The notes under the pieces were generated by a model. It worked only from the letters and a program-made list of their open reading frames with translations. It was not told where the DNA came from and searched no databases. A DNA stretch of 64,000 nucleotides from Candidatus Shapirobacteria bacterium. GTDB taxonomy: Bacteria; Patescibacteriota; Microgenomatia; UBA12405. Numbering within the stretch: the first letter of the stretch is position 1; the number at the start of each line of letters is the position of its first letter. The position numbers and the translations under genes were made by a program. The DNA is taken from the NCBI GenBank assembly GCA_016188545.1, contig JACPHO010000006.1:693-64692 (forward strand), written 5' to 3'. This document shows, one piece after another, positions 44,533-57,509 of this stretch.

Positions 44533-44787
44533 CTACTTATACACTTCTCTTCTATGTCTAATCCTATTTACCACAATTTTGTTACCATCAATGTCAAAAC
44601 AAATTCGATAGTCACCTACTCGATATCTAAAACTACCTTGATCAAAGTTAATTAAACTTTTCGATAGACCAGTCGGATCATTTTTTAGATATATCAACTT
44701 ATTGTAAATATTTTTAACTAAAACCCTATCCAATTTATCAATATCCTGTCTAGCATTTTTCGTAATTAAGATTACGTACTCCACCAT
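44533..44787 (-). CDS. Type II toxin, RelE/ParE family
   Basis: 84 aa; FRYRVGDYRICFDIDGNKIVVNRIRHRREVY. Confidence 0.75.
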   Translation of the reverse strand: MVEYVILITKNARQDIDKLDRVLVKNIYNKLIYLKNDPTGLSKSLINFDQGSFRYRVGDYRICFDIDGNKIVVNRIRHRREVYK

Positions 44788-45032
44788 TAAATATTGCCAA
44801 ATACTTCATCCATTGTATAGTACTCACCTCTTTTGTACTGTGCTCTCGATTCCTTAACAGAAGCTAAAAACTTCTTGTCCCCCAGTTCCAACAAGTCTTC
44901 TAAATCATCAACATCGATTATAGCCTTACTTACTTTACCTTTTTGAGTTATCAGCAAATACTTGCCCCTTTTAACCATTTTCAAAGCATCGGCCAAATTA
45001 TTTCTTAATTTCGTACTGCTAACAATATTCAT
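44787..45032 (-). CDS. Antitoxin, Phd/YefM family
   Basis: 81 aa; N-terminal IVSSTKLRNNLADALKMVKRGKYLLITQKGKVSKAII; stop overlaps the toxin start. Confidence 0.65.
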   Translation of the reverse strand: MNIVSSTKLRNNLADALKMVKRGKYLLITQKGKVSKAIIDVDDLEDLLELGDKKFLASVKESRAQYKRGEYYTMDEVFGNI

Positions 45033-47770: not shown

Positions 47771-47780
47771 TTCTATTTGA

Positions 47781-47815
47781 ACCAAAAAAACCCGCTCGTA
47801 AGGGCGGGTTTTTTT
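47781..47815. terminator. Terminator hairpin AAACCCGC-TCGTAAG-GGCGGGTTTTTTT (repeat copy 1)
   Basis: A-tract + GC stem + T7; follows the rplA stop. Confidence 0.75.
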
Positions 47816-47816
47816 A

Positions 47817-48893
47817 TTATCCCAATTCCACTGCCGATACTTTTGTAAGTTCTTGCCATTCTATAGTCTCTGGAGATACTTTTTGAACTGTTCCCTCATA
47901 TAGGTCAAAAACAAATCTATAGTTTTCATCGTTTCCGACAATTAGACAAGCACCCATTCCATAAGAGTCAGATTCTTTTCTTCTACCTAGCCCAACTTCG
48001 GACCAACTAGTTTTGGCCACAATTTCTTCATTATGTATCTGACCACCAGGCAGGTATGCCAATACCACAGGAAACTTTAATTTAAATAAAGTCATCTCAC
48101 TTGTATCAAAAATATTTTCACCTCCCAACATTGTGGTTAAAATAGACTTTATATCTTCACCACCCACTACGGCCTTAACCACCTCTTCTCGTATTTCAAT
48201 CTGTTTTTCCAAGTTAGTTTCACCTTTAAACATAGCCACCAACATTGCTACTGCCTGCAATTCAGTAAACTCCACAAATTTAGAAAATTGCTCTGCTGTG
48301 TCACCATCACCATAAAATTTATTTATAAGCATCATTGACTCATCCGACAACAGACGGTTTTCCCAGAGGCCTTTTGCTTTTTGAAAAACTCCATTCCAAT
48401 CATTCTCCACAGTCGCTTCTTTTTTTATAACTGGAGTTTCCTCCTTAGCTCTAAAACTAGCAACGGCTTTTCTCACCTCAATCATATCCACACTCTGTTC
48501 TCTTTTTTGAACAACCTCCTGCCACCTTACCATAGCAATCCAGTAAATTCTTTCCAAATAATCCTTTCGGACATCACCTTTTAACCCAGAAATGCCATAT
48601 ACATCCTGCCTCGACACTTCAGCCACCATTGCATTTCGCATCTCATCATCATGTTGCAAACGCCAATATGCACTACAAGTTGCTATCGGGTATTTTTCTA
48701 GACTCTGCATCATTGTCAGACTTACTCTAATTACAGTATCATTCACCTTAAACCCCTCTTTGATTTCATCCATAGCTAATAACACCCTTGCCTCAACCTG
48801 ATTTATTGCACCATCACCAATTTTTCGGGGCTGTCTTTCACTTGGCTGGACCATTCCCACCAAAGAATCCAACATATCTCTTCTTGCTGACAT
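47817..48893 (-). CDS. Hypothetical protein bracketed by duplicated terminator hairpins
   Basis: 358 aa from the ATG at 48893; the ORF-track N-terminus (to 48968) reads through the hairpin at 48908..48943 and is rejected. Confidence 0.45.
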   Translation of the reverse strand: MSARRDMLDSLVGMVQPSERQPRKIGDGAINQVEARVLLAMDEIKEGFKVNDTVIRVSLTMMQSLEKYPIATCSAYWRLQHDDEMRNAMVAEVSRQDVYGISGLKGDVRKDYLERIYWIAMVRWQEVVQKREQSVDMIEVRKAVASFRAKEETPVIKKEATVENDWNGVFQKAKGLWENRLLSDESMMLINKFYGDGDTAEQFSKFVEFTELQAVAMLVAMFKGETNLEKQIEIREEVVKAVVGGEDIKSILTTMLGGENIFDTSEMTLFKLKFPVVLAYLPGGQIHNEEIVAKTSWSEVGLGRRKESDSYGMGACLIVGNDENYRFVFDLYEGTVQKVSPETIEWQELTKVSAVELG

Positions 48894-48907
48894 GTAAATA
48901 TTGTAAC

Positions 48908-48943
48908 ACTGAATAAAAACCCGCTCGTCAGGGCGGTTTTTTT
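48908..48943. repeat. Second near-identical copy of the terminator hairpin (AAACCCGCTCGTCAGGGCGGTTTTTTTT)
   Basis: About 30/32 identity with 47781..47815 in the same orientation: direct repeats flanking the 358-aa gene. Confidence 0.6.
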
Positions 48944-48966
48944 TGATTTGACAATCTATACTAGAC

Positions 48967-49515
48967 ATGTTATTCTATACAAAATTGTATATGATAAATA
49001 AACTAGATATTTTATTAAAACAGCCTCAAAAAATATATCACACCAATGATTTACGAATTTTGTGGAACATCACCAAACTTACTACTCTCTACCAAACTAT
49101 ATCCCGGCTTATTAAAAAAGGTGTTTTAATTAAAATACACAAAGGGCTATATTGCACCATTCCCATTACCAATCTTGACCCCATCGAACTTGGATCTCGT
49201 CTTATTAATCGTTTTTGCTACCTCACCACCGAAACCATTCTCGCTCAAAGTGGAACCATCAATCAATCACCAAACAAAATTACGTTCGTTTCCGACATTT
49301 CCAAAAAAATTACTGTCGGCAATAACACTTATTTATACCGGCAGTTAAATGATAAATATTTATACAATAGTATTGGTATTAATCTACAACCAAACGGAGT
49401 ATTAGTTGCTTCAACCGCCAGAGCCGCTGCCGATGTGCTCTATTTTCAACCCAATTACCACTTCGACAACAATAGTATCATTATTCAAAAAGGAGTTTAT
49501 GATAGCCAACCGTAG
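48967..49515 (+). CDS. AbiEi-family antitoxin/transcriptional regulator (type IV TA)
   Basis: 182 aa; N-terminal wHTH with the characteristic ...LIKKGVLIKIHKGLY motif. Confidence 0.6.
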   Translation: MLFYTKLYMINKLDILLKQPQKIYHTNDLRILWNITKLTTLYQTISRLIKKGVLIKIHKGLYCTIPITNLDPIELGSRLINRFCYLTTETILAQSGTINQSPNKITFVSDISKKITVGNNTYLYRQLNDKYLYNSIGINLQPNGVLVASTARAAADVLYFQPNYHFDNNSIIIQKGVYDSQP

Positions 49516-50224
49516 AGTCGATATTATTCATAAAGTTCATTTATTACGAGTCTTAACTAAAATTGTTGATAATCCAATTTTATCTCAGTCACTATATTTT
49601 AAAGGTGGAACTTGCGCATCAATGCAAAATATTTTAGATAGGTTTTCTGTTGATTTAGACTTTGATATTAATCCTAAATCAAACGAAAACACTTTAAGAA
49701 CCGAATTTCACACCATTTTCAAAAAACTAGATTTCACCCTCGATCAAGAAAGTCAAAATGCTTTAGAATTTTTTCTCAAATATAAAAACGATCCAAATCA
49801 GCGTAACACTCTCAAAATCGATGCTCTAAACTTTCAGGTTAAGTCAAATTTATATGCTCCAGTTTTTCTTCCCGAAATCAACCGAATTGTAAATTGTCAA
49901 ACCAAAGAGACAATTTTTGCCAACAAATTGGTTGCCATCAAAGATCGTTTTGACAAACACGAATCAATCGCCTGCCGTGACTTGTATGACATTCATCATT
50001 TTTTCATGATTGGTTTGCAATATCGATCAGAAATCATTGTTGAAAGGACAAACCTTTCTCCTCAAAGATATTTTAAATATTTAATTGATTTCATCAAATC
50101 CAAGATTACACAAACCTTAATCGACCAGGACCTCAACACTTTACTATCACCAGAGTCATTTAATAAAATCCGCAAAATCCTCAAACCTGAAGTGCTCCTC
50201 CTATTGCAAAATCAAGAAAAATAA
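49499..50224 (+). CDS. AbiEii/AbiGii-family nucleotidyltransferase toxin (DUF1814)
   Basis: Start ATG 49499 preceded by AAGGAG; YFKGGTCASMQNILDRFSVDLDFDI matches the GGT...RxSxDxD NTase motif; overlaps AbiEi by 17 nt. Confidence 0.65.
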   Translation: MIANRRVDIIHKVHLLRVLTKIVDNPILSQSLYFKGGTCASMQNILDRFSVDLDFDINPKSNENTLRTEFHTIFKKLDFTLDQESQNALEFFLKYKNDPNQRNTLKIDALNFQVKSNLYAPVFLPEINRIVNCQTKETIFANKLVAIKDRFDKHESIACRDLYDIHHFFMIGLQYRSEIIVERTNLSPQRYFKYLIDFIKSKITQTLIDQDLNTLLSPESFNKIRKILKPEVLLLLQNQEK

Positions 50225-50244
50225 TCTGATATAATCAAAACCTA

Positions 50245-51603
50245 ATGTCTCCCGTTCACTGCGGTCTCGATTTTGGTACCACCAATTCTTCACTGGCGGT
50301 ATTTTCCGGCAATACACCTCAGATTATCCCAATAGATGAGCAAAATAATAATCCATCCGTTTTAAAATCCCTCCTGTACCTCAACCCTCGCCAAGAATCA
50401 GCCGTTGGTGCATCCGCCATCAAAAACTACCTGTCAGATCTCGACACCCTCCCATCTGTCCCCCTAAGACTCGAAGAAACTGGCCGATTGATCAAAACTT
50501 TTGGACCATCAACTGCCAGTGGAGTCGGTCCAGTAGTTTTTGTCCCCGAAATTATTGAAGTTGATGACAGTGGTCGCGGACGACTGCTTCAGTCTCTCAA
50601 GTCCGTATTAACCAACCCCAGTTTCACCGGCACCAACATCTTCGGTAAATTTTACTCTCTTGAAGAACTCCTAGGAATACTCATGCAGGAAATAAAATCA
50701 TCTGCCGAAACACACCTAGGCCACACTCTTGATTCCGTTGTTCTTGGTCGTCCTGTCAAATATGTCGGTACGGGTCAAAATCAAACTGCCATCGACCGCA
50801 TGGTCAGAATTGCCACTTCAGCCGGATTTAAAAACATCGAATTCGAGCTAGAACCAATCGGTGCCGCCCTTAACTACGGAATTAATATCAAAAATAACCA
50901 AAACATCCTTGTTTTTGACTTTGGCGGAGGAACTCTGGATATCTGTGTTATGAAACTCCCTGAGAAAAAAATTCTTTCTGTCTCTGGTCGAGGCATAGGT
51001 GGAGATCTTCTCAATTCTCGTATCGTGCAAGCTAAGATTGCCAAATATTTTGGCGTCTACAGCCAGATTAATCACAAAGTCCCCTTCCCTAGTGACTACC
51101 GCCTGGCTCTAACCTCATGGTATCGCACCTCCCTACTTAAAAACGTCAAAGATTTAGGCATGCTCAAAGATCTATCGATTCGCTCCACTGATCCAGAATA
51201 TGTCCAAAACTTTTGTAATCTAGTCGAACACGATTACGCTTTTGATTTTTTCTCCACCATTGATCGCTTAAAGGTAAGTCTATCAACAACTGACTCTGCT
51301 GATTTTAACTTTCACCGTTCCCATCTCAACCTACAACAAACTATCACCCGAAATGATTTTGAGAACTCGATAATTAATGAACTCGATGAATCAAAACTTT
51401 GTATCAACGAAGCTTTGTCAGCCGCAGGTCTAAAATCCACCGACATCGACCAGGTTATTCTCACCGGCGGTTCTTCCCAAACTCCTGTCTTTAGGCAATT
51501 AGTTGATAGTATATTTACCCCTGACAAAATTATTGCCTCTGACTACTTCACCGCGGTCGCCGCTGGACTCAGTATCCGCGCCCACCAGATATTTGGTTCT
51601 TAG
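50245..51603 (+). CDS. Hsp70-family actin-like ATPase, nucleotide-binding domain only
   Basis: 452 aa; CGLDFGTTNSSLAV (phosphate-1), VFDFGGGTLDICVM (phosphate-2/connect-1), ILTGGSSQTPVF; no substrate-binding domain. Confidence 0.65.
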   Translation: MSPVHCGLDFGTTNSSLAVFSGNTPQIIPIDEQNNNPSVLKSLLYLNPRQESAVGASAIKNYLSDLDTLPSVPLRLEETGRLIKTFGPSTASGVGPVVFVPEIIEVDDSGRGRLLQSLKSVLTNPSFTGTNIFGKFYSLEELLGILMQEIKSSAETHLGHTLDSVVLGRPVKYVGTGQNQTAIDRMVRIATSAGFKNIEFELEPIGAALNYGINIKNNQNILVFDFGGGTLDICVMKLPEKKILSVSGRGIGGDLLNSRIVQAKIAKYFGVYSQINHKVPFPSDYRLALTSWYRTSLLKNVKDLGMLKDLSIRSTDPEYVQNFCNLVEHDYAFDFFSTIDRLKVSLSTTDSADFNFHRSHLNLQQTITRNDFENSIINELDESKLCINEALSAAGLKSTDIDQVILTGGSSQTPVFRQLVDSIFTPDKIIASDYFTAVAAGLSIRAHQIFGS

Positions 51604-51648
51604 CTAAATACCCTCTTCACAAACGGCTGGTATTATTTAGTCCCACAA

Positions 51649-53448
51649 GTGATAAATTTAACTATGCCCTCCCGCTCAAAATCATCTATTAACTACCCCT
51701 TCCTCACTTTTGCAGCCGATATCTGGGAATACACTCGTGGCTATCATCGCCGTTTTCTCACTTGGTACACCCTATTCTTTATCTCCTCACTAATAAGCTT
51801 TTTGGTTCCTGTTTATATGGCCAAGATAATCGACAGTGTCGCCATCAAACAAACCGGCAATATTGTCTATTATATTTTAATAATATTTGCTATTGAGTTT
51901 GGCCGCATCATAGGTCGTAACCGTATCAAGTTAGCTATATACAAGTTGGCTGAAATCTGTCGGTTATCAAGTCGCCAGCGCTGGATTTCCAAAGTACTTA
52001 GTTTCGATCTTAAGTGGCATGATAGTCAAAATTCCGGTAAAAAAATCTCCATCCTGTCTCGCGGTTCAGACCAACTAAAAGGACTAATCCAGTTTATTAC
52101 TAAAGGTGGTGGTGGTATCGACATCTTCGTCAGTATTATCGGTGTCATAGTTATTTTTTTCACTCTGAACTACAAGTACGCCATTCTTTGTTTTGTTAAC
52201 GTCACCTTCTACATGGGTACACTTATTTATCAGACCCGCCGCCTCAACCAAAAACGTCATCAGATCAACCGGACCTCCGACAATGTCATGGGTAAAAACT
52301 TCGACTTTTTTTCCAACATGTCACTTATCAAAAGCCTAGGCATTGGTCAAAATATCAACCAAGCTCTGTTTGTCAAAGAATCACATCTTAAGGAAAAAAC
52401 CATAAAATACACCATTTTGGAGTTCAATAAATGGATCTATATCAACACAGTTTCCCAAGTCTGTCATATCATCGCCATTTTTCTAGTCGTCGATGACATC
52501 CTCAACCAACGAATATCTATCGGTTCTTTTTTTATCTATAACGGTTACATTAACCGGCTTCAAGACGGTTTGGGAGGTCTAGCTGAATGGGTCAACGATC
52601 TTATTGAAAAATACTTAGGCCTCTACAGAATTCATCAACTGTTACATTCCGGAACTACTACCACCTCAAACGGACAACAAGCATTTCCTGATAATCTAGA
52701 ACTTATCAAAATAGACCATCTTTCTTTTGGCTACAACAACTCCCGTTTAATCCTCGACGACGCCAACCTATTACTAAAATCAGGCAACAAATATGGCTTT
52801 GTTGGTATTTCCGGATCAGGTAAGTCGACTCTTAGTAAATTACTTCTAAAACTCTATCTTCCCTCCTCAGGCACTATCTACTTTAATAATCGAAAAATTA
52901 CTCAAATAAATACCGATTCAATTCACCAACACATCAGTGTCGCCCCTCAAGATAACGAAATATTTAACCTGTCTTTCAAGGAAAACATAACAATTGCCTC
53001 CACAAGTAAACGGTTCAATCCCCAATTATATGAGCTAGCTATCAAAACCTCTGAGTGTCGGTCAATCCTCGACAAAATTAAAAATAATCATCAAACAATT
53101 CTCGGAGAAAAAGGTATCAAGTTGTCGGGTGGTGAACGCCAAAGATTAGGTATTGCCCGGGCGATCTACAAAAACACTCCACTTATAATTTTTGACGAAA
53201 GCACTTCTGCTCTCGACTCTAAAACCGAATCAAAAATCCTCGCTAGTCTAGAAAAATACTTTGCTTCCAAAACTATCATCTGGATAGCCCACCGCCTATC
53301 CACCCTTCGTTTTACTGATGAAATTATCGTCTTTGATCAAGGGAAAATAGTTGAACAGGGAAGCTTCAAGTCCTTAATTTCAAAAATGGGACACTTCTAC
53401 GAACTCTGGCAAATCCAAAAAAAGACCAACATAAAACGGCTTTCTTAA
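51649..53448 (+). CDS. ABC transporter, fused permease-ATPase (type I exporter)
   Basis: 599 aa; 6 TM then GISGSGKSTL, LSGGERQRLGIARA, IIFDESTSALD. Confidence 0.85.
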   Translation: MINLTMPSRSKSSINYPFLTFAADIWEYTRGYHRRFLTWYTLFFISSLISFLVPVYMAKIIDSVAIKQTGNIVYYILIIFAIEFGRIIGRNRIKLAIYKLAEICRLSSRQRWISKVLSFDLKWHDSQNSGKKISILSRGSDQLKGLIQFITKGGGGIDIFVSIIGVIVIFFTLNYKYAILCFVNVTFYMGTLIYQTRRLNQKRHQINRTSDNVMGKNFDFFSNMSLIKSLGIGQNINQALFVKESHLKEKTIKYTILEFNKWIYINTVSQVCHIIAIFLVVDDILNQRISIGSFFIYNGYINRLQDGLGGLAEWVNDLIEKYLGLYRIHQLLHSGTTTTSNGQQAFPDNLELIKIDHLSFGYNNSRLILDDANLLLKSGNKYGFVGISGSGKSTLSKLLLKLYLPSSGTIYFNNRKITQINTDSIHQHISVAPQDNEIFNLSFKENITIASTSKRFNPQLYELAIKTSECRSILDKIKNNHQTILGEKGIKLSGGERQRLGIARAIYKNTPLIIFDESTSALDSKTESKILASLEKYFASKTIIWIAHRLSTLRFTDEIIVFDQGKIVEQGSFKSLISKMGHFYELWQIQKKTNIKRLS

Positions 53449-53471
53449 TCTAGCTTTTACTTTTTTTAAAT

Positions 53472-53696
53472 CTACGAGTTAGCCTCAGTGATTGCCTTTT
53501 CCATATTTGCCGCCGCCCAACCAAGTGTTTTTCTCATTACCGGTACCGACACGCCTTCATCTTTAGCTGCTTGTGCTACGCTCAATCCCTTATGAGCCAC
53601 CTCTACGGCTCTCCTGGCTTGAAAGCCTGGCAGGGAAACTTCTAAATCTTCGGGTGATATCCCAGATAAAAAATCAACGGCTCCTTTTGTACTCAT
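53472..53696 (-). CDS. Small HTH protein (GC-rich; possible transposase OrfA-like remnant)
   Basis: 74 aa; HTH segment GLSVAQAAKDEGVSVPVMRKTL; GC content above its flanks. Confidence 0.25.
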   Translation of the reverse strand: MSTKGAVDFLSGISPEDLEVSLPGFQARRAVEVAHKGLSVAQAAKDEGVSVPVMRKTLGWAAANMEKAITEANS

Positions 53697-53736
53697 ACAA
53701 ATATCATACCACTATCAATTTTTTATAACTCACAGT

Positions 53737-54150
53737 TTAGATCAATTCGTCCTTAATTAGCTTCGGAAATAAATTTTGATACATACTTTCCGATACCCCT
53801 ATCTGATTATTAGTATAATCGTCTTTTGAATACCACAACATTTCTCCTATCTCTGCACCTAAAACTATTACTCCAGAAAATTCTTTCACCAAATAACAGT
53901 TAACTCTCTGGTATTGTTCGCCTTCGCCAATCCTAGCCTCATATGAAAAATATTTTTCAATAGTGGTTGGAGATATCGACATTTCCTCACCCAACTCTCT
54001 ATTCATCGCCATTAGGTCATCCTCCCCAGTCTCCACTTTTCCTCCAGGGGTAAAATAAAACTCTTTATAAAACCCCTCATTTCCTTTTACCAGTAAGATC
54101 TTTTTATCCTTAATGATTAAGGCCGATACTCTTGTCCTGACTATCTTCAT
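53737..54150 (-). CDS. NUDIX hydrolase
   Basis: 137 aa; Nudix box GGKVETGEDDLMAMNRELGEEMSI. Confidence 0.8.
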   Translation of the reverse strand: MKIVRTRVSALIIKDKKILLVKGNEGFYKEFYFTPGGKVETGEDDLMAMNRELGEEMSISPTTIEKYFSYEARIGEGEQYQRVNCYLVKEFSGVIVLGAEIGEMLWYSKDDYTNNQIGVSESMYQNLFPKLIKDELI

Positions 54151-54153
54151 TAG

Positions 54154-55020
54154 TTATTCTAATCCCAACTCAATTATTTTATCGAGTAGCTTTGAATACG
54201 ATATTCCAGCTGCCCTCGCCTCTTTTGGCAGTAATGAGTTTTTTGTCATCCCCGGTAAGGTATTGATCTCCAGCACAAATATTTTTCCCTCCCTAACTAT
54301 CATATCGACTCTCGCAAACCCATTCGCTTTAACAGCTTTATAAACTTTCAAAGTTATCGCCTCCACCTTTCTTTGTAATGCTGGCGATATTCTGGCGGGA
54401 CATATTTCATCGGCCATACCATCAACATATTTTGCTTCATAGTCAAAAAATGGATTTTTAGGATGAATTTCAATAATAGGTAACACTACTGGTAAGTCGT
54501 TTCCCAACACCCCACACGACAGTTCCAGTCCCTCAATATATTTTTCCACTATCGCCTCCTTACTATATTCCTTGGCTTCAACAATCGCTTTAGTCAGCTT
54601 GTTTTGTTGTTTGACAATACTCACTCCCACACTAGAACCGCCGTCCACTGGCTTAACCACACAAGGTGTTTCAGTTGTCAGTGGTGCCATTAATATCCCC
54701 TCACTCTCCATTACCTTTCGGAATATCATTTTGTCCATCCCTACCGCCGACGCCATCACTCCGCTCCCGGTGTATTTGATTCCTCTTGTTTCTAAGTATC
54801 CCTGAATCGCCCCATCCTCTCCACTCTTACCATGTAAAACCAGGAATGCGATATCTGGTTTAAATTCTGTCAGCTTATCTATCTCGCTGGGCATGTCCAC
54901 TGACAAAACTTCATATTTCTTTTTAGATAAGTTATAGACTACCTCGCTGCCTGAGTTAAGTGACACCACCCTCTCACTACTGTCTCCACCCATTAATACA
55001 GCTACTTTTAATTTTGTCAT
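54154..55020 (-). CDS. ddl: D-alanine--D-alanine ligase
   Basis: 288 aa; KVAVLMGG, FLVLHGKSGEDGAIQGYLETRGIKYTGSG, ATP-grasp C-terminal blocks. Confidence 0.8.
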   Translation of the reverse strand: MTKLKVAVLMGGDSSERVVSLNSGSEVVYNLSKKKYEVLSVDMPSEIDKLTEFKPDIAFLVLHGKSGEDGAIQGYLETRGIKYTGSGVMASAVGMDKMIFRKVMESEGILMAPLTTETPCVVKPVDGGSSVGVSIVKQQNKLTKAIVEAKEYSKEAIVEKYIEGLELSCGVLGNDLPVVLPIIEIHPKNPFFDYEAKYVDGMADEICPARISPALQRKVEAITLKVYKAVKANGFARVDMIVREGKIFVLEINTLPGMTKNSLLPKEARAAGISYSKLLDKIIELGLE

Positions 55021-55107
55021 AACCGATTATACTACACTATTTACTTTATTAACACTAATATTAAGTTCAAACTTTACTTTTACAACATAAACTGATATAT
55101 TAGAAAC

Positions 55108-56235
55108 ATGGCCGAATACAAAACATTAAATGAAATCACTGTTTGCAGCTCCTCTCTTGTACACAACTACCACTACTATCAAAAGCTATCTCCACATGCT
55201 GTTATTTGTCCCGTCATCAAGGCCAACGCCTACGGTCATGGTTTGCGGGAAGTCGCCAAGATTATTGACGAACACCTGAGTCCACCCTATCTCATGGTCG
55301 ATTCTCTCTATGAAGCCTACGAACTTAGCAAGCTCAAAACCCGCACACCTATCCTTATCATGGGTTTCACCGACCCACAAAACTATGCTGTTTGGAAAAA
55401 GCTCCCCTTTACTTTCACTGTCTACGATCAAAGCTCACTCTTAGCACTTAACCAACACCAAAAAGGCGCTAAGATTCATATCAAACTCGATACTGGCATG
55501 TGCCGTCTAGGAATTCAAAAAAAAGATGTCAAGAGTTTTATAAAAACTCTCCTCGAATGTCGCAATCTTAAAGTTGAAGGTATATACTCCCACCTTTCTC
55601 AAGCTGATGATCCCAAAAAAACCACCTTTACCAACAGCCAGATCAAATCCTTTAAAGAAATGGTCTCTATTTTTGAATCTGCGGGTTTTACCTTCAAATA
55701 CAAACACATTGCTGCATCAGCTGGTGCCAGCACCATCCATGATCCATATTTTAATCTTATTAGACTAGGCCTCGGTTTTTATGGTTATTCCCCATTTGGC
55801 CCCCACACTATCCCTGGTCGTCTTGATCGTCAATCTCTACGTCCCGCCCTCAGTTTTACTTCACGTATAGCTCTCATCAAACAAGTCAGTCCTGGCAATC
55901 AGATCGGCTATAGCGGTTCCTATCGTGTCAAACAGGACGAAACCATAGCCATTCTCACTGCCGGTTATAACGAAGGTATCCCCCGGGAGTTAAGTAACCG
56001 TTTTTCTTTTCTCGTCAAAGGTACTCAGTGCCCAGTTGTTGGTAATATCAGCATGGACATGACCACCATCAAAATCCCCCGCACAATTAATGCTCTTATC
56101 GGTGACACCACCACCATGATCTCTCCGGACATAAATTCACCCTGTTCTATTTATAAGTACGCTATAACCATGGATACGATTCCATACACCATTCTAACTG
56201 GACTACATCCCTCAACTAAAAGGAGGATAATATAA
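55108..56235 (+). CDS. alr: Alanine racemase
   Basis: 375 aa; VIKANAYGHGL (PLP-Lys). Confidence 0.8.
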   Translation: MAEYKTLNEITVCSSSLVHNYHYYQKLSPHAVICPVIKANAYGHGLREVAKIIDEHLSPPYLMVDSLYEAYELSKLKTRTPILIMGFTDPQNYAVWKKLPFTFTVYDQSSLLALNQHQKGAKIHIKLDTGMCRLGIQKKDVKSFIKTLLECRNLKVEGIYSHLSQADDPKKTTFTNSQIKSFKEMVSIFESAGFTFKYKHIAASAGASTIHDPYFNLIRLGLGFYGYSPFGPHTIPGRLDRQSLRPALSFTSRIALIKQVSPGNQIGYSGSYRVKQDETIAILTAGYNEGIPRELSNRFSFLVKGTQCPVVGNISMDMTTIKIPRTINALIGDTTTMISPDINSPCSIYKYAITMDTIPYTILTGLHPSTKRRII

Positions 56236-56240
56236 CACTT

Positions 56241-57509
56241 ATGAAAAATTTCATTAGCTCTTTTGTACTTACTTACCTTCGCCTTCTCGCTCATATCCAA
56301 CTTAGTAAAATCCGACTACTTCAAAAAATTAAAGGTAAAAAATTAACCATTGTCGGCATCACCGGTTCTGCAGGTAAGTCATCTACTATCAATGCCTGTG
56401 AGTCAACCCTACAAGACTATCTAAAAGTCAAAACCACAGCCGGTTCAAACTCCGAATCGGGAATTCCCCTAAACATCCTCGGGATCAAAGTTTCTTCATT
56501 TACCCCTGTAGACTGGCTAAAATACTGCGCCTTGGCACTAAGGAAACTGTTTGCCAACTGGGAAAGCTGTGATATCTACCTAGTCGAAATGGGTATTGAT
56601 AGTCCAACAGAACCCAAGAACATGTCATACCTGCTCAAAATAGTCCATCCTGATATTGGAATTTTTCTCAACGTCAACCTCACCCACTCCCAAGAATTCG
56701 AAAAAACCATATCCAGCCACCTCATAGGAGATCAAAAAACATCAAAAGTAATTGAGCTTATCGGCGCGGAGAAAGCCAAACTCGTCAACTCGCTACCGTC
56801 AACTGGATATGCACTGATTAATACTGCTGACCCGACAGTTCTCAAAACCACTCTCACTCTTAGAGCCAAAAAAATAATTCTCAAACCAGTTCATCTTGAC
56901 TTTCCACACTATGCTCCCCCAACCGATTTTGACATCTCCATCTCCGCCGCGATTAACTTAGCCAAAGTATTTGGGGTTGATGAAAAAACTGCCATAACCG
57001 GCTTGAAACAAAATCTGATTCTTCCTCCTAGTCGGTCCTCTCTATTCTCTGGAATAAACGATTCAACAATCATCGACTCTTCATACAACTCCTCACCTTT
57101 AGCCACCACTGCCATGCTTCAGGTACTCTCAAAACACAATAGCCCTCGTATTGCCATTCTCGGAGACATGCGTGAACTCGGAGATGAATCACCTGTCGCT
57201 CACCAAAAACTCTACCAACAGGCTGTCAAAGTAGCCAACACTATTATTAGTGTTGGACCGGAGACTCAAAAATATTTTGGTGATAAGTCTATAAAGTTCT
57301 TATATTGGTGGCAGGTTGGTGAATACCTACTCTCTCACAAAGAACTGCTAAAAAACGCTACTATTCTTGTCAAAGGATCTCAAAATACGATTTATCTCGA
57401 AGAACTTGTCAAACAACTTTTAGCTGATAAATCAGACGAATCAAAACTCTGCCGCCAATCCTCCTACTGGCTCGATCTCAAAACTAAGTTCCGAAGTTCT
57501 AATACTTAG
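56241..57509 (+). CDS. murF: Mur ligase family, MurF-like (UDP-MurNAc-tripeptide--D-Ala-D-Ala ligase), lacking N-terminal domain
   Basis: 422 aa; IVGITGSAGKSST P-loop, VEMGIDSPTEPKNMSY..IGIFLNVNLTHS; adjacent to ddl/alr. Confidence 0.6.
   Translation: MKNFISSFVLTYLRLLAHIQLSKIRLLQKIKGKKLTIVGITGSAGKSSTINACESTLQDYLKVKTTAGSNSESGIPLNILGIKVSSFTPVDWLKYCALALRKLFANWESCDIYLVEMGIDSPTEPKNMSYLLKIVHPDIGIFLNVNLTHSQEFEKTISSHLIGDQKTSKVIELIGAEKAKLVNSLPSTGYALINTADPTVLKTTLTLRAKKIILKPVHLDFPHYAPPTDFDISISAAINLAKVFGVDEKTAITGLKQNLILPPSRSSLFSGINDSTIIDSSYNSSPLATTAMLQVLSKHNSPRIAILGDMRELGDESPVAHQKLYQQAVKVANTIISVGPETQKYFGDKSIKFLYWWQVGEYLLSHKELLKNATILVKGSQNTIYLEELVKQLLADKSDESKLCRQSSYWLDLKTKFRSSNT

What the first reader, a model, noticed from the sequence alone, without database searches (positions are those of the whole stretch)
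48967..53448. AbiEi/AbiEii abortive-infection pair followed co-directionally by an NBD-only Hsp70 homolog and an ABC exporter
AbiEi (wHTH) and the AbiEii DUF1814 nucleotidyltransferase overlap by 17 nt, as in a classic type IV TA/Abi module. Twenty nt downstream starts a 452-aa Hsp70-family ATPase lacking a substrate-binding domain, and 45 nt further on a half-ABC exporter. All four are on the same strand with short gaps, so they may be co-transcribed. An Hsp70-NBD + exporter pairing next to an Abi module could be an unrecognised accessory or effector part of the defence locus, or merely juxtaposed.
Basis: partly seen in the sequence, partly recalled or inferred. Interest (0 to 1): 0.55.

Follow-up and report, generated by a model that had tools for sequence, protein, structure and literature searches.

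The report
Ordinary AbiE toxin-antitoxin beside housekeeping genes
A self-contained two-gene AbiE toxin-antitoxin (phage-defence) cassette has landed next to a conserved Hsp70-like ATPase gene and an ABC exporter gene in a Shapirobacteria genome, and the neighbours are core genes with their own promoters, not parts of the defence system.

Summary
All four genes exist, co-directional, in a Candidatus Shapirobacteria (CPR) genome. Two starts probably need correcting: abiEi at ATG 48991 and the ABC gene at ATG 51664.

abiEi/abiEii is a complete AbiE module. It has a 17-nt overlap, all four nucleotidyltransferase motifs, its own promoter and a palindrome.

The 452-aa protein is a YegD-like Hsp70 consisting of the nucleotide-binding domain only (AF2 pLDDT 91).

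- The closest relative (Hsp70-like 89% identical) has rplA→Hsp70-like→ABC in the same synteny, with 103 bp where the window has 2.49 kb (orphan ORF plus AbiE).
- A 61%-identical relative also has Hsp70-like→ABC without AbiE.
- Only 1 of 8 contexts found through the Hsp70-like gene carries AbiE.
- None of 80 metagenomic AbiE loci (48–70% identity) has the Hsp70-like gene, rplA or a directly adjoining ABC gene nearby.

The Hsp70-like and ABC genes each keep a conserved −10 box 5–9 nt before the ATG, whatever lies upstream. This genome is largely leaderless, so co-transcription is unlikely.

One residual curiosity: the ≥79%-identity AbiE subclade sits directly upstream of the Hsp70-like gene in 5 of 6 genomes. 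This is best read as one insertion allele spread by recombination.

Verdict: juxtaposition; low interest.

The parts
47786..47816 (.). Terminator hairpin after rplA, copy 1 (A-run / GC stem / T-run, so bidirectional). It also ends the minus-strand orphan ORF.
   Evidence: Terminator scan; direct repeat family D1 and inverted repeat I14.
47817..48893 (-). Orphan ORF of 358 aa (start M26 of the 383-aa ORF). It is part of the 2.49-kb segment absent from the closest relative but is not part of AbiE. Function unknown.
   Evidence: ORF. No Pfam, PADLOC, NCBIfam or PHROG hit. The only relatives are itself, one at 42% and one at 30% among 1.84 billion representatives. AF2 single-sequence model pLDDT 41. 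Absent in L001.
48915..48945 (.). Second copy of the rplA terminator hairpin (83% identical over 41 nt). It abuts the abiE promoter as the rplA terminator does in L163 and L166.
   Evidence: the repeat finder D1; junction comparison.
48948..48976 (+). abiE promoter, TTGACA-17 nt-TATTCT. The TTGACA marks the left edge of the conserved cassette.
   Evidence: Promoter scan. TTGACA and the downstream block are invariant in six cassettes, while sequence to the left is unrelated.
48976..48991 (.). Palindrome TATACA-N4-TGTATA between the -10 and the start codon: candidate AbiEi operator (inferred).
   Evidence: Sequence; conserved in 6 cassettes. AbiEi is known to bind promoter inverted repeats (PMC3985639).
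48991..49515 (+). abiEi, antitoxin / wHTH autorepressor, 174 aa.
   Evidence: PADLOC AbiEi 5e-26; Pfam AbiEi_4 7e-5; NCBIfam TAA_AbiEi 1.3e-11, below cut-off; alignment with homologs.
49499..50224 (+). abiEii, DUF1814 nucleotidyltransferase toxin, 241 aa. It overlaps abiEi by 17 nt, and a GGAG lies 4 nt before its ATG.
   Evidence: Pfam PF08843 6.5e-16; PADLOC 3e-20. Motif residues G36 G37, R48, D52, D54, K143, A146, R150, R160, D161 and D164 are invariant in 18 homologs. SD-like GGAG.
50227..50235 (+). TGaTATAAT extended -10, 9 nt before the Hsp70-like ATG. This is the gene's own promoter (inferred), not part of the cassette.
   Evidence: Sequence. The TATAATCAAAAYCT block is invariant at five AbiE junctions, and a homologous block is present in AbiE-free L171.
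50245..51603 (+). YegD-like Hsp70 protein consisting of the nucleotide-binding domain only, 452 aa. It is a core syntenic gene of Shapirobacteria.
   Evidence: Pfam HSP70 5.8e-31. Best NCBIfam hit is PRK11678 at 1e-49, below cut-off. AF2 pLDDT 91; Foldseek matches Hsp70 NBDs. More than 100 homologs of about 450 aa.
51650..51658 (+). TGaTAAATT extended -10, 5 nt before the ABC gene's ATG: its own conserved promoter (inferred).
   Evidence: Sequence. Conserved in W, L001, L173 and L003, although the upstream gene differs in L003.
51664..53448 (+). Half-size ABC exporter (transmembrane domain + ATPase), MsbA/NdvA-like, 594 aa.
   Evidence: Pfam ABC_membrane + ABC_tran. The best NCBIfam hits are all far below their cut-offs. 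Orthologs in L001 (91%), L003 (67%) and L173.

Best explanation
The region holds three independent units that are merely adjacent.

(1) abiEi-abiEii is a complete, self-contained AbiE toxin-antitoxin / abortive-infection cassette. It has one sigma-70-type promoter and a palindromic candidate operator for the wHTH antitoxin. The downstream toxin gene is translationally coupled: it has a 17-nt overlap and one of the few Shine-Dalgarno-like sites in this genome. By homology, AbiEii is a DUF1814 nucleotidyltransferase that blocks growth, in characterised relatives by modifying tRNA. AbiEi both represses the operon and neutralises the toxin.

(2) The 452-aa gene is a YegD-like Hsp70 with the nucleotide-binding domain only. 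It is a core Shapirobacteria gene, fixed between the rplKA and rplJL operons among peptidoglycan-precursor genes, and is transcribed from its own -10 box as a near-leaderless mRNA.

(3) The ABC half-exporter is another host gene with its own conserved -10 box. It is present next to the Hsp70-like gene in only some genomes.

The AbiE cassette has no mobility genes. It occupies a variable slot between rplA and the Hsp70-like gene. The window's lineage most likely acquired it by homologous recombination with another, lower-GC Shapirobacteria lineage that already carried the insertion allele. The right-hand crossover lies within the first about 5 codons of the Hsp70-like gene.

Shown: gene identities, presence/absence across genomes, junction conservation. 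Inferred: promoter function, operator function, recombination route, toxin mechanism.
For: Identities.

Insertion relative to the closest relative:
- blastn shows window 47772-50259 (2.49 kb) corresponds to 103 bp in L001. Synteny continues on both sides: secE-nusG-rplK-rplA | Hsp70-like-ABC-74aa-NUDIX-ddl.

Hsp70-like gene without AbiE:
- L001, L002, L170, L171, L172, L173 and the P0015 context.
- 79 of the 80 species-representative genome loci returned by the scan (mostly Chloroflexota) lack AbiE.
- Hsp70-like followed by ABC without AbiE occurs in L001 and L173.

AbiE without the Hsp70-like gene:
- 80 metagenome loci at 48-70% identity always have abiEi upstream. None has an Hsp70-like gene, rplA, ddl or a Mur ligase nearby; 61 of them have at least 500 bp downstream.
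- L164 carries a 79%-identical cassette in a different place.

No co-evolution:
- The window's Hsp70-like protein is 88% identical to that of AbiE-free L001 but only 58-59% identical to those of AbiE-linked L003, L163 and L166.
- AbiEii is 78-86% identical between all carriers.

Foreign composition:
- abiEi/abiEii GC is 0.35/0.32, against 0.43-0.44 for rplA and the Hsp70-like gene in the window.
- The cassette's GC is similar (0.30-0.36) in every carrier examined and close to the overall GC of the low-GC loci L003 and L163.

Separate promoters:
- The TATAATCAAAAYCT block before the Hsp70-like gene is conserved at five AbiE junctions and is recognisable in AbiE-free L171.
- TGnTAAATT lies 5 nt before the ABC ATG in four genomes, whatever is upstream.
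- 28 of 58 long ORFs in the window have TAnnnT ending 4-10 nt before the ATG, and only 4 of 58 have an SD-like site.
- No terminator-like site was found between the genes, but none is needed for this argument.

Crossover:
- The window shares ATGTCNCCC (MSPxH/Y) and the upstream block with L003 and L169.
- From codon 6 onward it matches L001.
Against: - The AbiE subclade at 79% identity or above lies immediately upstream of the Hsp70-like gene (gaps of 10-22 nt, same strand, no terminator) in 5 of 6 genomes examined: window, L003, L163, L166 and L169. A 69% relative (L167) is in the same rplA|Hsp70-like slot. That is more recurrence than random juxtaposition predicts.
- Synonymous sites are near saturation for AbiE as for the flanking genes (4-fold identity 38-55% versus 33-49%). 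Recent transfer therefore cannot be demonstrated by sequence distance.
- Promoter and operator assignments rest on sequence conservation only. No transcript data exist.
- The contexts examined are few: 8 ascertained through the Hsp70-like gene and 6 cassettes of the close AbiE subclade, the window included.
Confidence: 0.85

Rival explanations
1. abiEi-abiEii plus the Hsp70-like ATPase (with or without the ABC exporter) is an unrecognised three- or four-gene defence operon. In it the ATPase acts as sensor, chaperone or regulator of the toxin, and the exporter as effector.
For: Tight co-directional linkage of AbiE and the Hsp70-like gene in five Shapirobacteria genomes, with a conserved junction. 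No terminator-like site lies between the genes.
Against: - The same Hsp70-like ortholog sits at the same syntenic place without AbiE in 7 of 8 contexts ascertained through it.
- AbiE-linked and unlinked Hsp70-like proteins are not separate clades (88% versus 58%).
- None of 80 AbiE relatives has it, and L164 lacks it.
- There is no PADLOC hit for the Hsp70-like protein. The ABC hits (mad3/mad8) cover only the generic ATPase region.
- The ABC gene is absent from L163, L166, L169 and L167, and lies on the other side of AbiE in L003.
- The -10 block before the Hsp70-like gene predates the insertion (L171).
- No paper in the searched library links AbiE with Hsp70.
Confidence: 0.06
2. Same functional reading, different history. 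AbiE was already upstream of the Hsp70-like gene in the Shapirobacteria ancestor, was inherited vertically under strong purifying selection, and was lost repeatedly (for example in the L001 and L002 lineages) rather than gained by the window's lineage.
For: - All five junctions are homologous, so one insertion event suffices.
- Synonymous sites in AbiE are about as saturated as in the flanks, so the divergence is old.
- AbiEii identity could plateau near 80% if only a minority of sites are free to vary.
Against: - L001 and L002 share one AbiE-free junction (gWTACACT...CTCAGTTTYTCCCGAT-ATG) and form a clade with the window by Hsp70-like identity (73-88%). Two independent precise losses that restored the same junction are less parsimonious than one gain.
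- Cassette GC is about 10 points below its flanks in the window, but close to the overall GC of the low-GC carriers L003 and L163.
- AbiE pairwise identities are star-like and incongruent with the Hsp70-like protein and RplA. For example, L163-L166 are 86% in AbiEii but 64% in the Hsp70-like protein.
- One cassette (L164) is at an unrelated locus.
Confidence: 0.15
3. The AbiE pair is a decaying, non-functional remnant, so nothing here is an active defence or TA module.
For: - The Pfam AbiEi_4 hit (23.3 bits) is just under the 25-bit cut-off, and NCBIfam TAA_AbiEi is far below its cut-off.
- abiEi has a longer C-terminal tail than most close homologs.
Against: - Both ORFs are full length.
- All catalytic motif residues of AbiEii are intact and invariant among 18 homologs.
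- The AbiEi tail resembles that of L167, so it is a natural variant.
- 75-86% protein identity is kept although synonymous sites are saturated, which implies purifying selection.
- The promoter and palindrome are conserved.
Confidence: 0.04

Closest known systems
AbiE (AbiEi/AbiEii) of Lactococcus lactis and Streptococcus agalactiae, and the related MenA/MenT (DUF1814-COG5340) pairs of Mycobacterium tuberculosis
   Same: - Bicistronic, overlapping genes.
- A wHTH antitoxin upstream of a DUF1814 nucleotidyltransferase.
- Motifs I-IV are present: GG, R..DxD, KLxAxxxR and RDxxD.
- A palindrome lies in the promoter.
- The module has no partner genes (PMC3985639; bioRxiv 10.64898/2026.01.19.700257).
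   Different: - Both proteins are shorter (174 and 241 aa) and divergent. NCBIfam equivalog cut-offs are not reached.
- The candidate operator is a single 6+6 bp palindrome rather than two 23-bp inverted repeats.
- The host is an uncultivated CPR bacterium.
- Toxicity, nucleotide preference, phosphorylation-based neutralisation and phage protection are all untested.
Escherichia coli YegD (Hsp70 family protein made of the nucleotide-binding domain only)
   Same: About 450 aa. The Hsp70/actin-fold nucleotide-binding domain has no linker, basket or lid. The best NCBIfam model is PRK11678 (1e-49). The family is described as NBD-only in PMC13580251.
   Different: - It scores 169.6 bits against a 331-bit equivalog cut-off, and only residues 139-450 align.
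- The N-terminal lobe carries about 30 extra residues.
- It is fixed in a ddl / alr / Mur-ligase neighbourhood in Shapirobacteria.
- The function of YegD itself is unknown.
MsbA / NdvA(ChvA)-type half-size ABC exporters
   Same: Fused six-helix transmembrane domain plus C-terminal ATPase, about 590 aa. The best NCBIfam hits are the glucan exporter and MsbA models.
   Different: All scores are far below the equivalog cut-offs, so the substrate cannot be named. There is no N-terminal peptidase domain of the bacteriocin-exporter type.

Membership tests
AbiE toxin-antitoxin / abortive infection (AbiEi-AbiEii) | Two-gene operon with the antitoxin gene first and the genes overlapping or abutting | tested here: met
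   abiEi 48991-49515 and abiEii 49499-50224 overlap by 17 nt. abiEi lies upstream in every one of the 80 relatives where enough sequence is present.
AbiE toxin-antitoxin / abortive infection (AbiEi-AbiEii) | AbiEi: N-terminal winged helix-turn-helix plus COG5340-type C-terminal domain | tested here: met
   The PADLOC AbiEi model scores 5e-26 over residues 13-172. Pfam AbiEi_4 scores 7e-5 (23.3 bits, just below the 25-bit cut-off). NCBIfam TAA_AbiEi scores 1.3e-11 but is far below its equivalog cut-off.
AbiE toxin-antitoxin / abortive infection (AbiEi-AbiEii) | AbiEii: DUF1814 nucleotidyltransferase with motifs I-II (hGG..R..DhD), III (KLxAxxxR) and IV (+DxxD) | tested here: met
   Pfam PF08843 scores 6.5e-16, above its cut-off. 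G36 G37, R48, D52-L-D54, K143-L-V-A146-..R150 and R160-D161-L-Y-D164 are present and invariant in 18 homologs. Motif definitions are from PMC3985639.
AbiE toxin-antitoxin / abortive infection (AbiEi-AbiEii) | Negative autoregulation by AbiEi binding to inverted repeats in the promoter | tested here: inconclusive
   A conserved TATACA-N4-TGTATA palindrome lies between the -10 and the ATG. It is shorter than and unlike the 23-bp repeats of S. agalactiae. Binding cannot be tested here.
AbiE toxin-antitoxin / abortive infection (AbiEi-AbiEii) | Toxin arrests growth, antitoxin neutralises it, and the pair protects against phage | not testable with these tools
   This needs expression and phage assays.
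YegD-type Hsp70 (nucleotide-binding domain only) | Hsp70/actin-fold nucleotide-binding domain | tested here: met
   Pfam HSP70 scores 5.8e-31. The AF2 model has pLDDT 91 and pTM 0.86. Foldseek to DnaK/Hsc70/BiP NBDs gives E about 1e-24 and TM 0.70-0.75 normalised to the target.
YegD-type Hsp70 (nucleotide-binding domain only) | No interdomain linker and no substrate-binding basket or lid | tested here: met
   The protein ends at residue 452, aligned to HscA model position 384 of 621 and to PRK11678 position 449 of 450. The model has no extra C-terminal domain.
YegD-type Hsp70 (nucleotide-binding domain only) | Equivalog of E. coli YegD (NCBIfam NF008673, cut-off 331 bits) | tested here: not met
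   169.6 bits, and only residues 139-450 align. It is therefore YegD-like, not a demonstrated ortholog.
Known multi-gene anti-phage systems containing an Hsp70-like or ABC component | Match of the Hsp70-like or ABC protein to a defence-system model, and conserved co-occurrence with the other components | tested here: not met
   There is no PADLOC hit for the Hsp70-like protein. The ABC protein hits mad3/mad8 only through the generic ATPase region. Co-occurrence fails.
Half-size ABC exporter (type I exporter fold) | ABC_membrane transmembrane domain fused to a C-terminal ABC ATPase | tested here: met
   Pfam PF00664 (4.8e-14) plus PF00005 (2.1e-29). No NCBIfam equivalog cut-off is reached.

The most novel reading that the evidence does not exclude
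In a subclade of Shapirobacteria, the AbiE cassette and the YegD-like Hsp70 ATPase have become a functional three-gene unit. For example, the ATPase might buffer or sense the state of the toxin-antitoxin complex. This would explain why this AbiE subclade is kept directly in front of that gene in five diverged genomes, with protein identity as high as that of ribosomal proteins.
Probability: 0.06. Interest if true: 0.55.

Novelty: new member of a known kind. Interest (0 to 1): 0.15.

Why it matters
It matters little. The work removes a candidate 'new defence system' from the list and shows a plain AbiE module in a CPR genome.

Two small points may be useful to others:
- A mobility-gene-free TA cassette can persist as a recombining insertion allele at one fixed slot (rplA | yegD-like) across diverged Shapirobacteria.
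- In this largely leaderless genome, short intergenic gaps on one strand do not imply an operon. That is a caution for operon-based guilt by association in CPR bacteria.

Tried and rejected
- **Defence-model and phage-family scans.** PADLOC and PHROG scans of the Hsp70-like protein, the ABC protein and the flanking small ORFs gave nothing defence-specific.
- **Literature.** A search for AbiEii + Hsp70 found no relevant link.
- **Dating the transfer.** I tried third-position and four-fold-site identity. All genes are near saturation, so this is inconclusive.
- **The orphan ORF.** I tried to identify the 358-aa ORF upstream of AbiE with a word-indexed search (itself only), a full HMMER search of 1.84 billion representatives (two weak relatives) and a single-sequence AF2 model (pLDDT 41, unusable).
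- **Other unknown neighbours.** The 470-aa ORF of L167 and the 428-aa ORF of L164 are not related to the orphan ORF or to the Hsp70-like protein.
- **Outward promoter in the cassette.** I first read the TATAAT block at the abiEii stop as an outward promoter carried by the cassette. I rejected this after finding the homologous block in front of the Hsp70-like gene in AbiE-free L171, and not after abiEii in L164.
- **Neighbour census.** A census of 80 species-representative genome loci found no AbiE. It found only a Chloroflexota-specific upstream partner and loose ABC proximity.

Full report
**What is there**

The window comes from a Candidatus Shapirobacteria (CPR, Microgenomates) genome. The 452-aa protein is 100% identical to an NCBI Shapirobacteria entry.

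Four co-directional ORFs are present as described.
- The first two are a bona fide AbiE pair.
  - AbiEi matches a PADLOC AbiEi model at 5e-26 over almost its full length, and Pfam AbiEi_4 weakly.
  - AbiEii matches Pfam PF08843 at 6.5e-16 and PADLOC AbiEii at 3e-20.
- The residues that define DUF1814 toxins in the founding paper are present and invariant among 18 homologs. These are motif I GG, motif II R..DxD, motif III KLxAxxxR and motif IV +DxxD (PMC3985639).
- The 17-nt overlap is real.
- The abiEi start should move to ATG 48991.
  - All five close homologs begin MINKL.
  - In L003 the upstream ATG is followed by a stop.
- A conserved palindrome, TATACA-N4-TGTATA (48976-48991), sits between the −10 and the ATG. 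By analogy with AbiEi autoregulation it is a candidate operator. This is inference.

The third gene encodes an Hsp70-family protein that consists of the nucleotide-binding domain only.
- Pfam HSP70 scores 5.8e-31.
- The C-terminus aligns to the end of the nucleotide-binding domain in the HscA model and to the last residue of the YegD-type model PRK11678. That model is the best NCBIfam hit but scores far below its cut-off.
- An AlphaFold model built on 18 homologs has pLDDT 91.
- The model matches isolated Hsp70 nucleotide-binding domains over their whole length.
- YegD is the known NBD-only Hsp70 of E. coli (PMC13580251). This protein is YegD-like, not a demonstrated ortholog.

The fourth gene is a half-size ABC exporter of the MsbA/NdvA type, with no equivalog-level match. 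Its likely start is ATG 51664, giving 594 aa as in its orthologs.

**Are the four genes one system?**

The closest relative found is L001, whose Hsp70-like protein is 89% identical.
- L001 has secE-nusG-rplK-rplA, then directly the Hsp70-like gene, the ABC gene, the 74-aa ORF, NUDIX and ddl.
- blastn shows that window 47772-50259 (2.49 kb: a 358-aa orphan ORF plus abiEi-abiEii) corresponds to only 103 bp in L001. Collinear similarity continues on both sides.

A more distant genome, L173 (61% identical), also has rplA, the Hsp70-like gene and the ABC gene without AbiE.

Other contexts reached through the Hsp70-like protein lack AbiE, and mostly lack the ABC gene too. These are L002, L170, L171, L172 and the P0015 context.

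In total, 1 of 8 such contexts has AbiE and 3 of 8 have the ABC gene next to the Hsp70-like gene.

Among 80 species-representative genome loci with more distant homologs (mostly Chloroflexota, 30-35% identity), only the Shapirobacteria one (L003) has AbiE. Those genomes have a different conserved upstream partner.

The converse also holds.
- A metagenome scan with an AbiEii alignment returned 80 loci at 48-70% identity.
- abiEi is always upstream where sequence allows.
- None has an Hsp70-like gene, rplA, rplK, nusG, ddl, a Mur-ligase or a NUDIX gene nearby, and none has an ABC gene directly adjoining AbiE (four have one 0.8-5 kb away).
- 61 of these loci have at least 500 bp downstream, and 35 have at least 1.5 kb.

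**A recurrence that needed explaining**

The AbiE subclade at 79% identity or above lies directly upstream of the Hsp70-like gene, with gaps of 10-22 nt, in L003, L163, L166 and L169 as well as in the window. One member (L164) is elsewhere, before an unknown 428-aa gene, Fic and Rho. A 69% relative (L167) lies in the same rplA|Hsp70-like interval but is separated from the Hsp70-like gene by a minus-strand ORF.

Three observations argue that this is shared ancestry of one insertion allele rather than function.
1. **The Hsp70-like proteins do not sort by linkage.** The window's protein is 88% identical to that of AbiE-free L001 and 58-59% identical to the AbiE-linked ones. AbiEii is 78-86% identical among all carriers, in a star-like pattern that does not track the Hsp70-like protein or RplA.
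2. **The cassette edges are sharp.**
   - On the left, conservation starts exactly at the TTGACA box. Different sequence lies upstream in each genome: an rplA terminator, the end of the ABC gene, or another gene.
   - On the right, the cassette ends at the abiEii stop codon.
   - The invariant TATAATCAAAAYCT block that follows or overlaps that stop is recognisable in front of the Hsp70-like gene in AbiE-free L171. It is absent after abiEii in L164. It is therefore the Hsp70-like gene's own −10 region.
3. **L001 and L002 share a different, mutually homologous AbiE-free junction**. The window has the L003/L169-type junction and first five codons (MSPxH), and matches L001 from codon 6 onward.

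Cassette GC is 0.32-0.35, against 0.43-0.44 for the flanking genes in the window. Together these points favour gain by homologous recombination from a lower-GC Shapirobacteria lineage. Synonymous sites are saturated, so timing cannot be shown. An ancient vertical origin with losses remains a weaker alternative.

**Transcription**

No terminator-like hairpin separates the genes, but this genome does not look operon-driven.
- 28 of 58 long ORFs have a TAnnnT element ending 4-10 nt before the first ATG, with a peak at 5 nt.
- Only 4 of 58 have a Shine-Dalgarno-like site.
- The Hsp70-like gene has TGaTATAAT 9 nt before its ATG.
- The ABC gene has TGaTAAATT 5 nt before its ATG.
- The ABC element is conserved in four genomes, including L003, where the upstream neighbour is rplA and a terminator.
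- abiEii, the one true internal cistron, has GGAG 4 nt before its ATG.

The most likely arrangement is three transcription units. This is inferred from sequence only.

**The rest of the inserted segment**

The 358-aa minus-strand ORF (47817-48893) is bracketed by two copies of the rplA terminator hairpin. The second copy abuts the abiE promoter as the rplA terminator does in L163 and L166. This suggests a second, separate insertion.

The ORF has no family hit and only two weak relatives in 1.84 billion representatives. Its single-sequence model is unusable.

**Mechanism**

The mechanism is taken from established knowledge of the family; nothing was tested here. AbiEi represses the operon through its wHTH domain and neutralises AbiEii. 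AbiEii is a nucleotidyltransferase toxin that arrests growth. Recent work on the S. agalactiae protein reports tRNA modification with UTP, and neutralisation through antitoxin-induced auto-phosphorylation (bioRxiv 10.64898/2026.01.19.700257). AbiE modules also stabilise the DNA they sit on (PMC3985639), which may help this cassette persist.

**Verdict**

This is an ordinary, intact AbiE module in a CPR genome, lying next to two host genes that are not part of it. The components belong to known families. The only mild novelty is the conserved insertion allele at the rplA | yegD-like slot. Interest 0.15.

Noticed in passing
whole window; e.g. 44787-45032, 53472-53696, 54154-55020, 51664: Leaderless-type gene starts dominate. 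28 of 58 long ORFs have a TAnnnT box ending 4-10 nt before the first ATG (peak at 5 nt), and only 4 of 58 have a Shine-Dalgarno-like site.
   Followed up: partly
47817-48893 (-), with hairpin copies at 47786-47826 and 48915-48955: A 358-aa near-orphan ORF is bracketed by two copies of the rplA terminator hairpin. It is absent from the closest relative. It has no family hit, only two weak relatives (42% and 30% identity) in 1.84 billion representatives, and an unusable structure model.
   Followed up: partly
44533-45032 (-): A ParE-toxin / Phd-YefM-antitoxin pair lies between nrdR and secE. This stretch has no counterpart in the closest relative L001, which has an unrelated 181-aa ORF there.
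   Followed up: partly
50245-57509 and loci L001, L002, L163, L167, L169-L173: In most of the Shapirobacteria contexts seen, the YegD-like Hsp70 gene lies among peptidoglycan-precursor genes: D-Ala-D-Ala ligase, alanine racemase, a Mur-ligase-like gene, FemAB and an LD-carboxypeptidase. This hints at a cell-envelope role.
   Followed up: no
L065:527-1795 and 14 other Chloroflexota loci: Distant homologs of the Hsp70-like gene in Chloroflexota have a conserved, roughly 390-aa gene with a coiled-coil start immediately upstream (median gap 12 nt, same strand) in 15 loci. It was not identified.
   Followed up: no
55108-56235 (+): Alanine racemase is present here but not at the corresponding place in the closest relative L001. 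This is another indel in this variable interval between the rplKA and rplJL operons.
   Followed up: no
1-64000: GC skew is strongly negative on the + strand in all 64 one-kilobase windows, reaching a cumulative value of -16.
   Followed up: no
L163:3043-3580, L166:3518-4648, L167:15648-16732, L171:986-1201: Other small TA-type or defence-type genes (BrnT/CopG, PIN/Phd, AAA_14-DUF4143) are scattered in the same rplKA-rplJL interval in related genomes. The interval appears to collect such cassettes.
   Followed up: no
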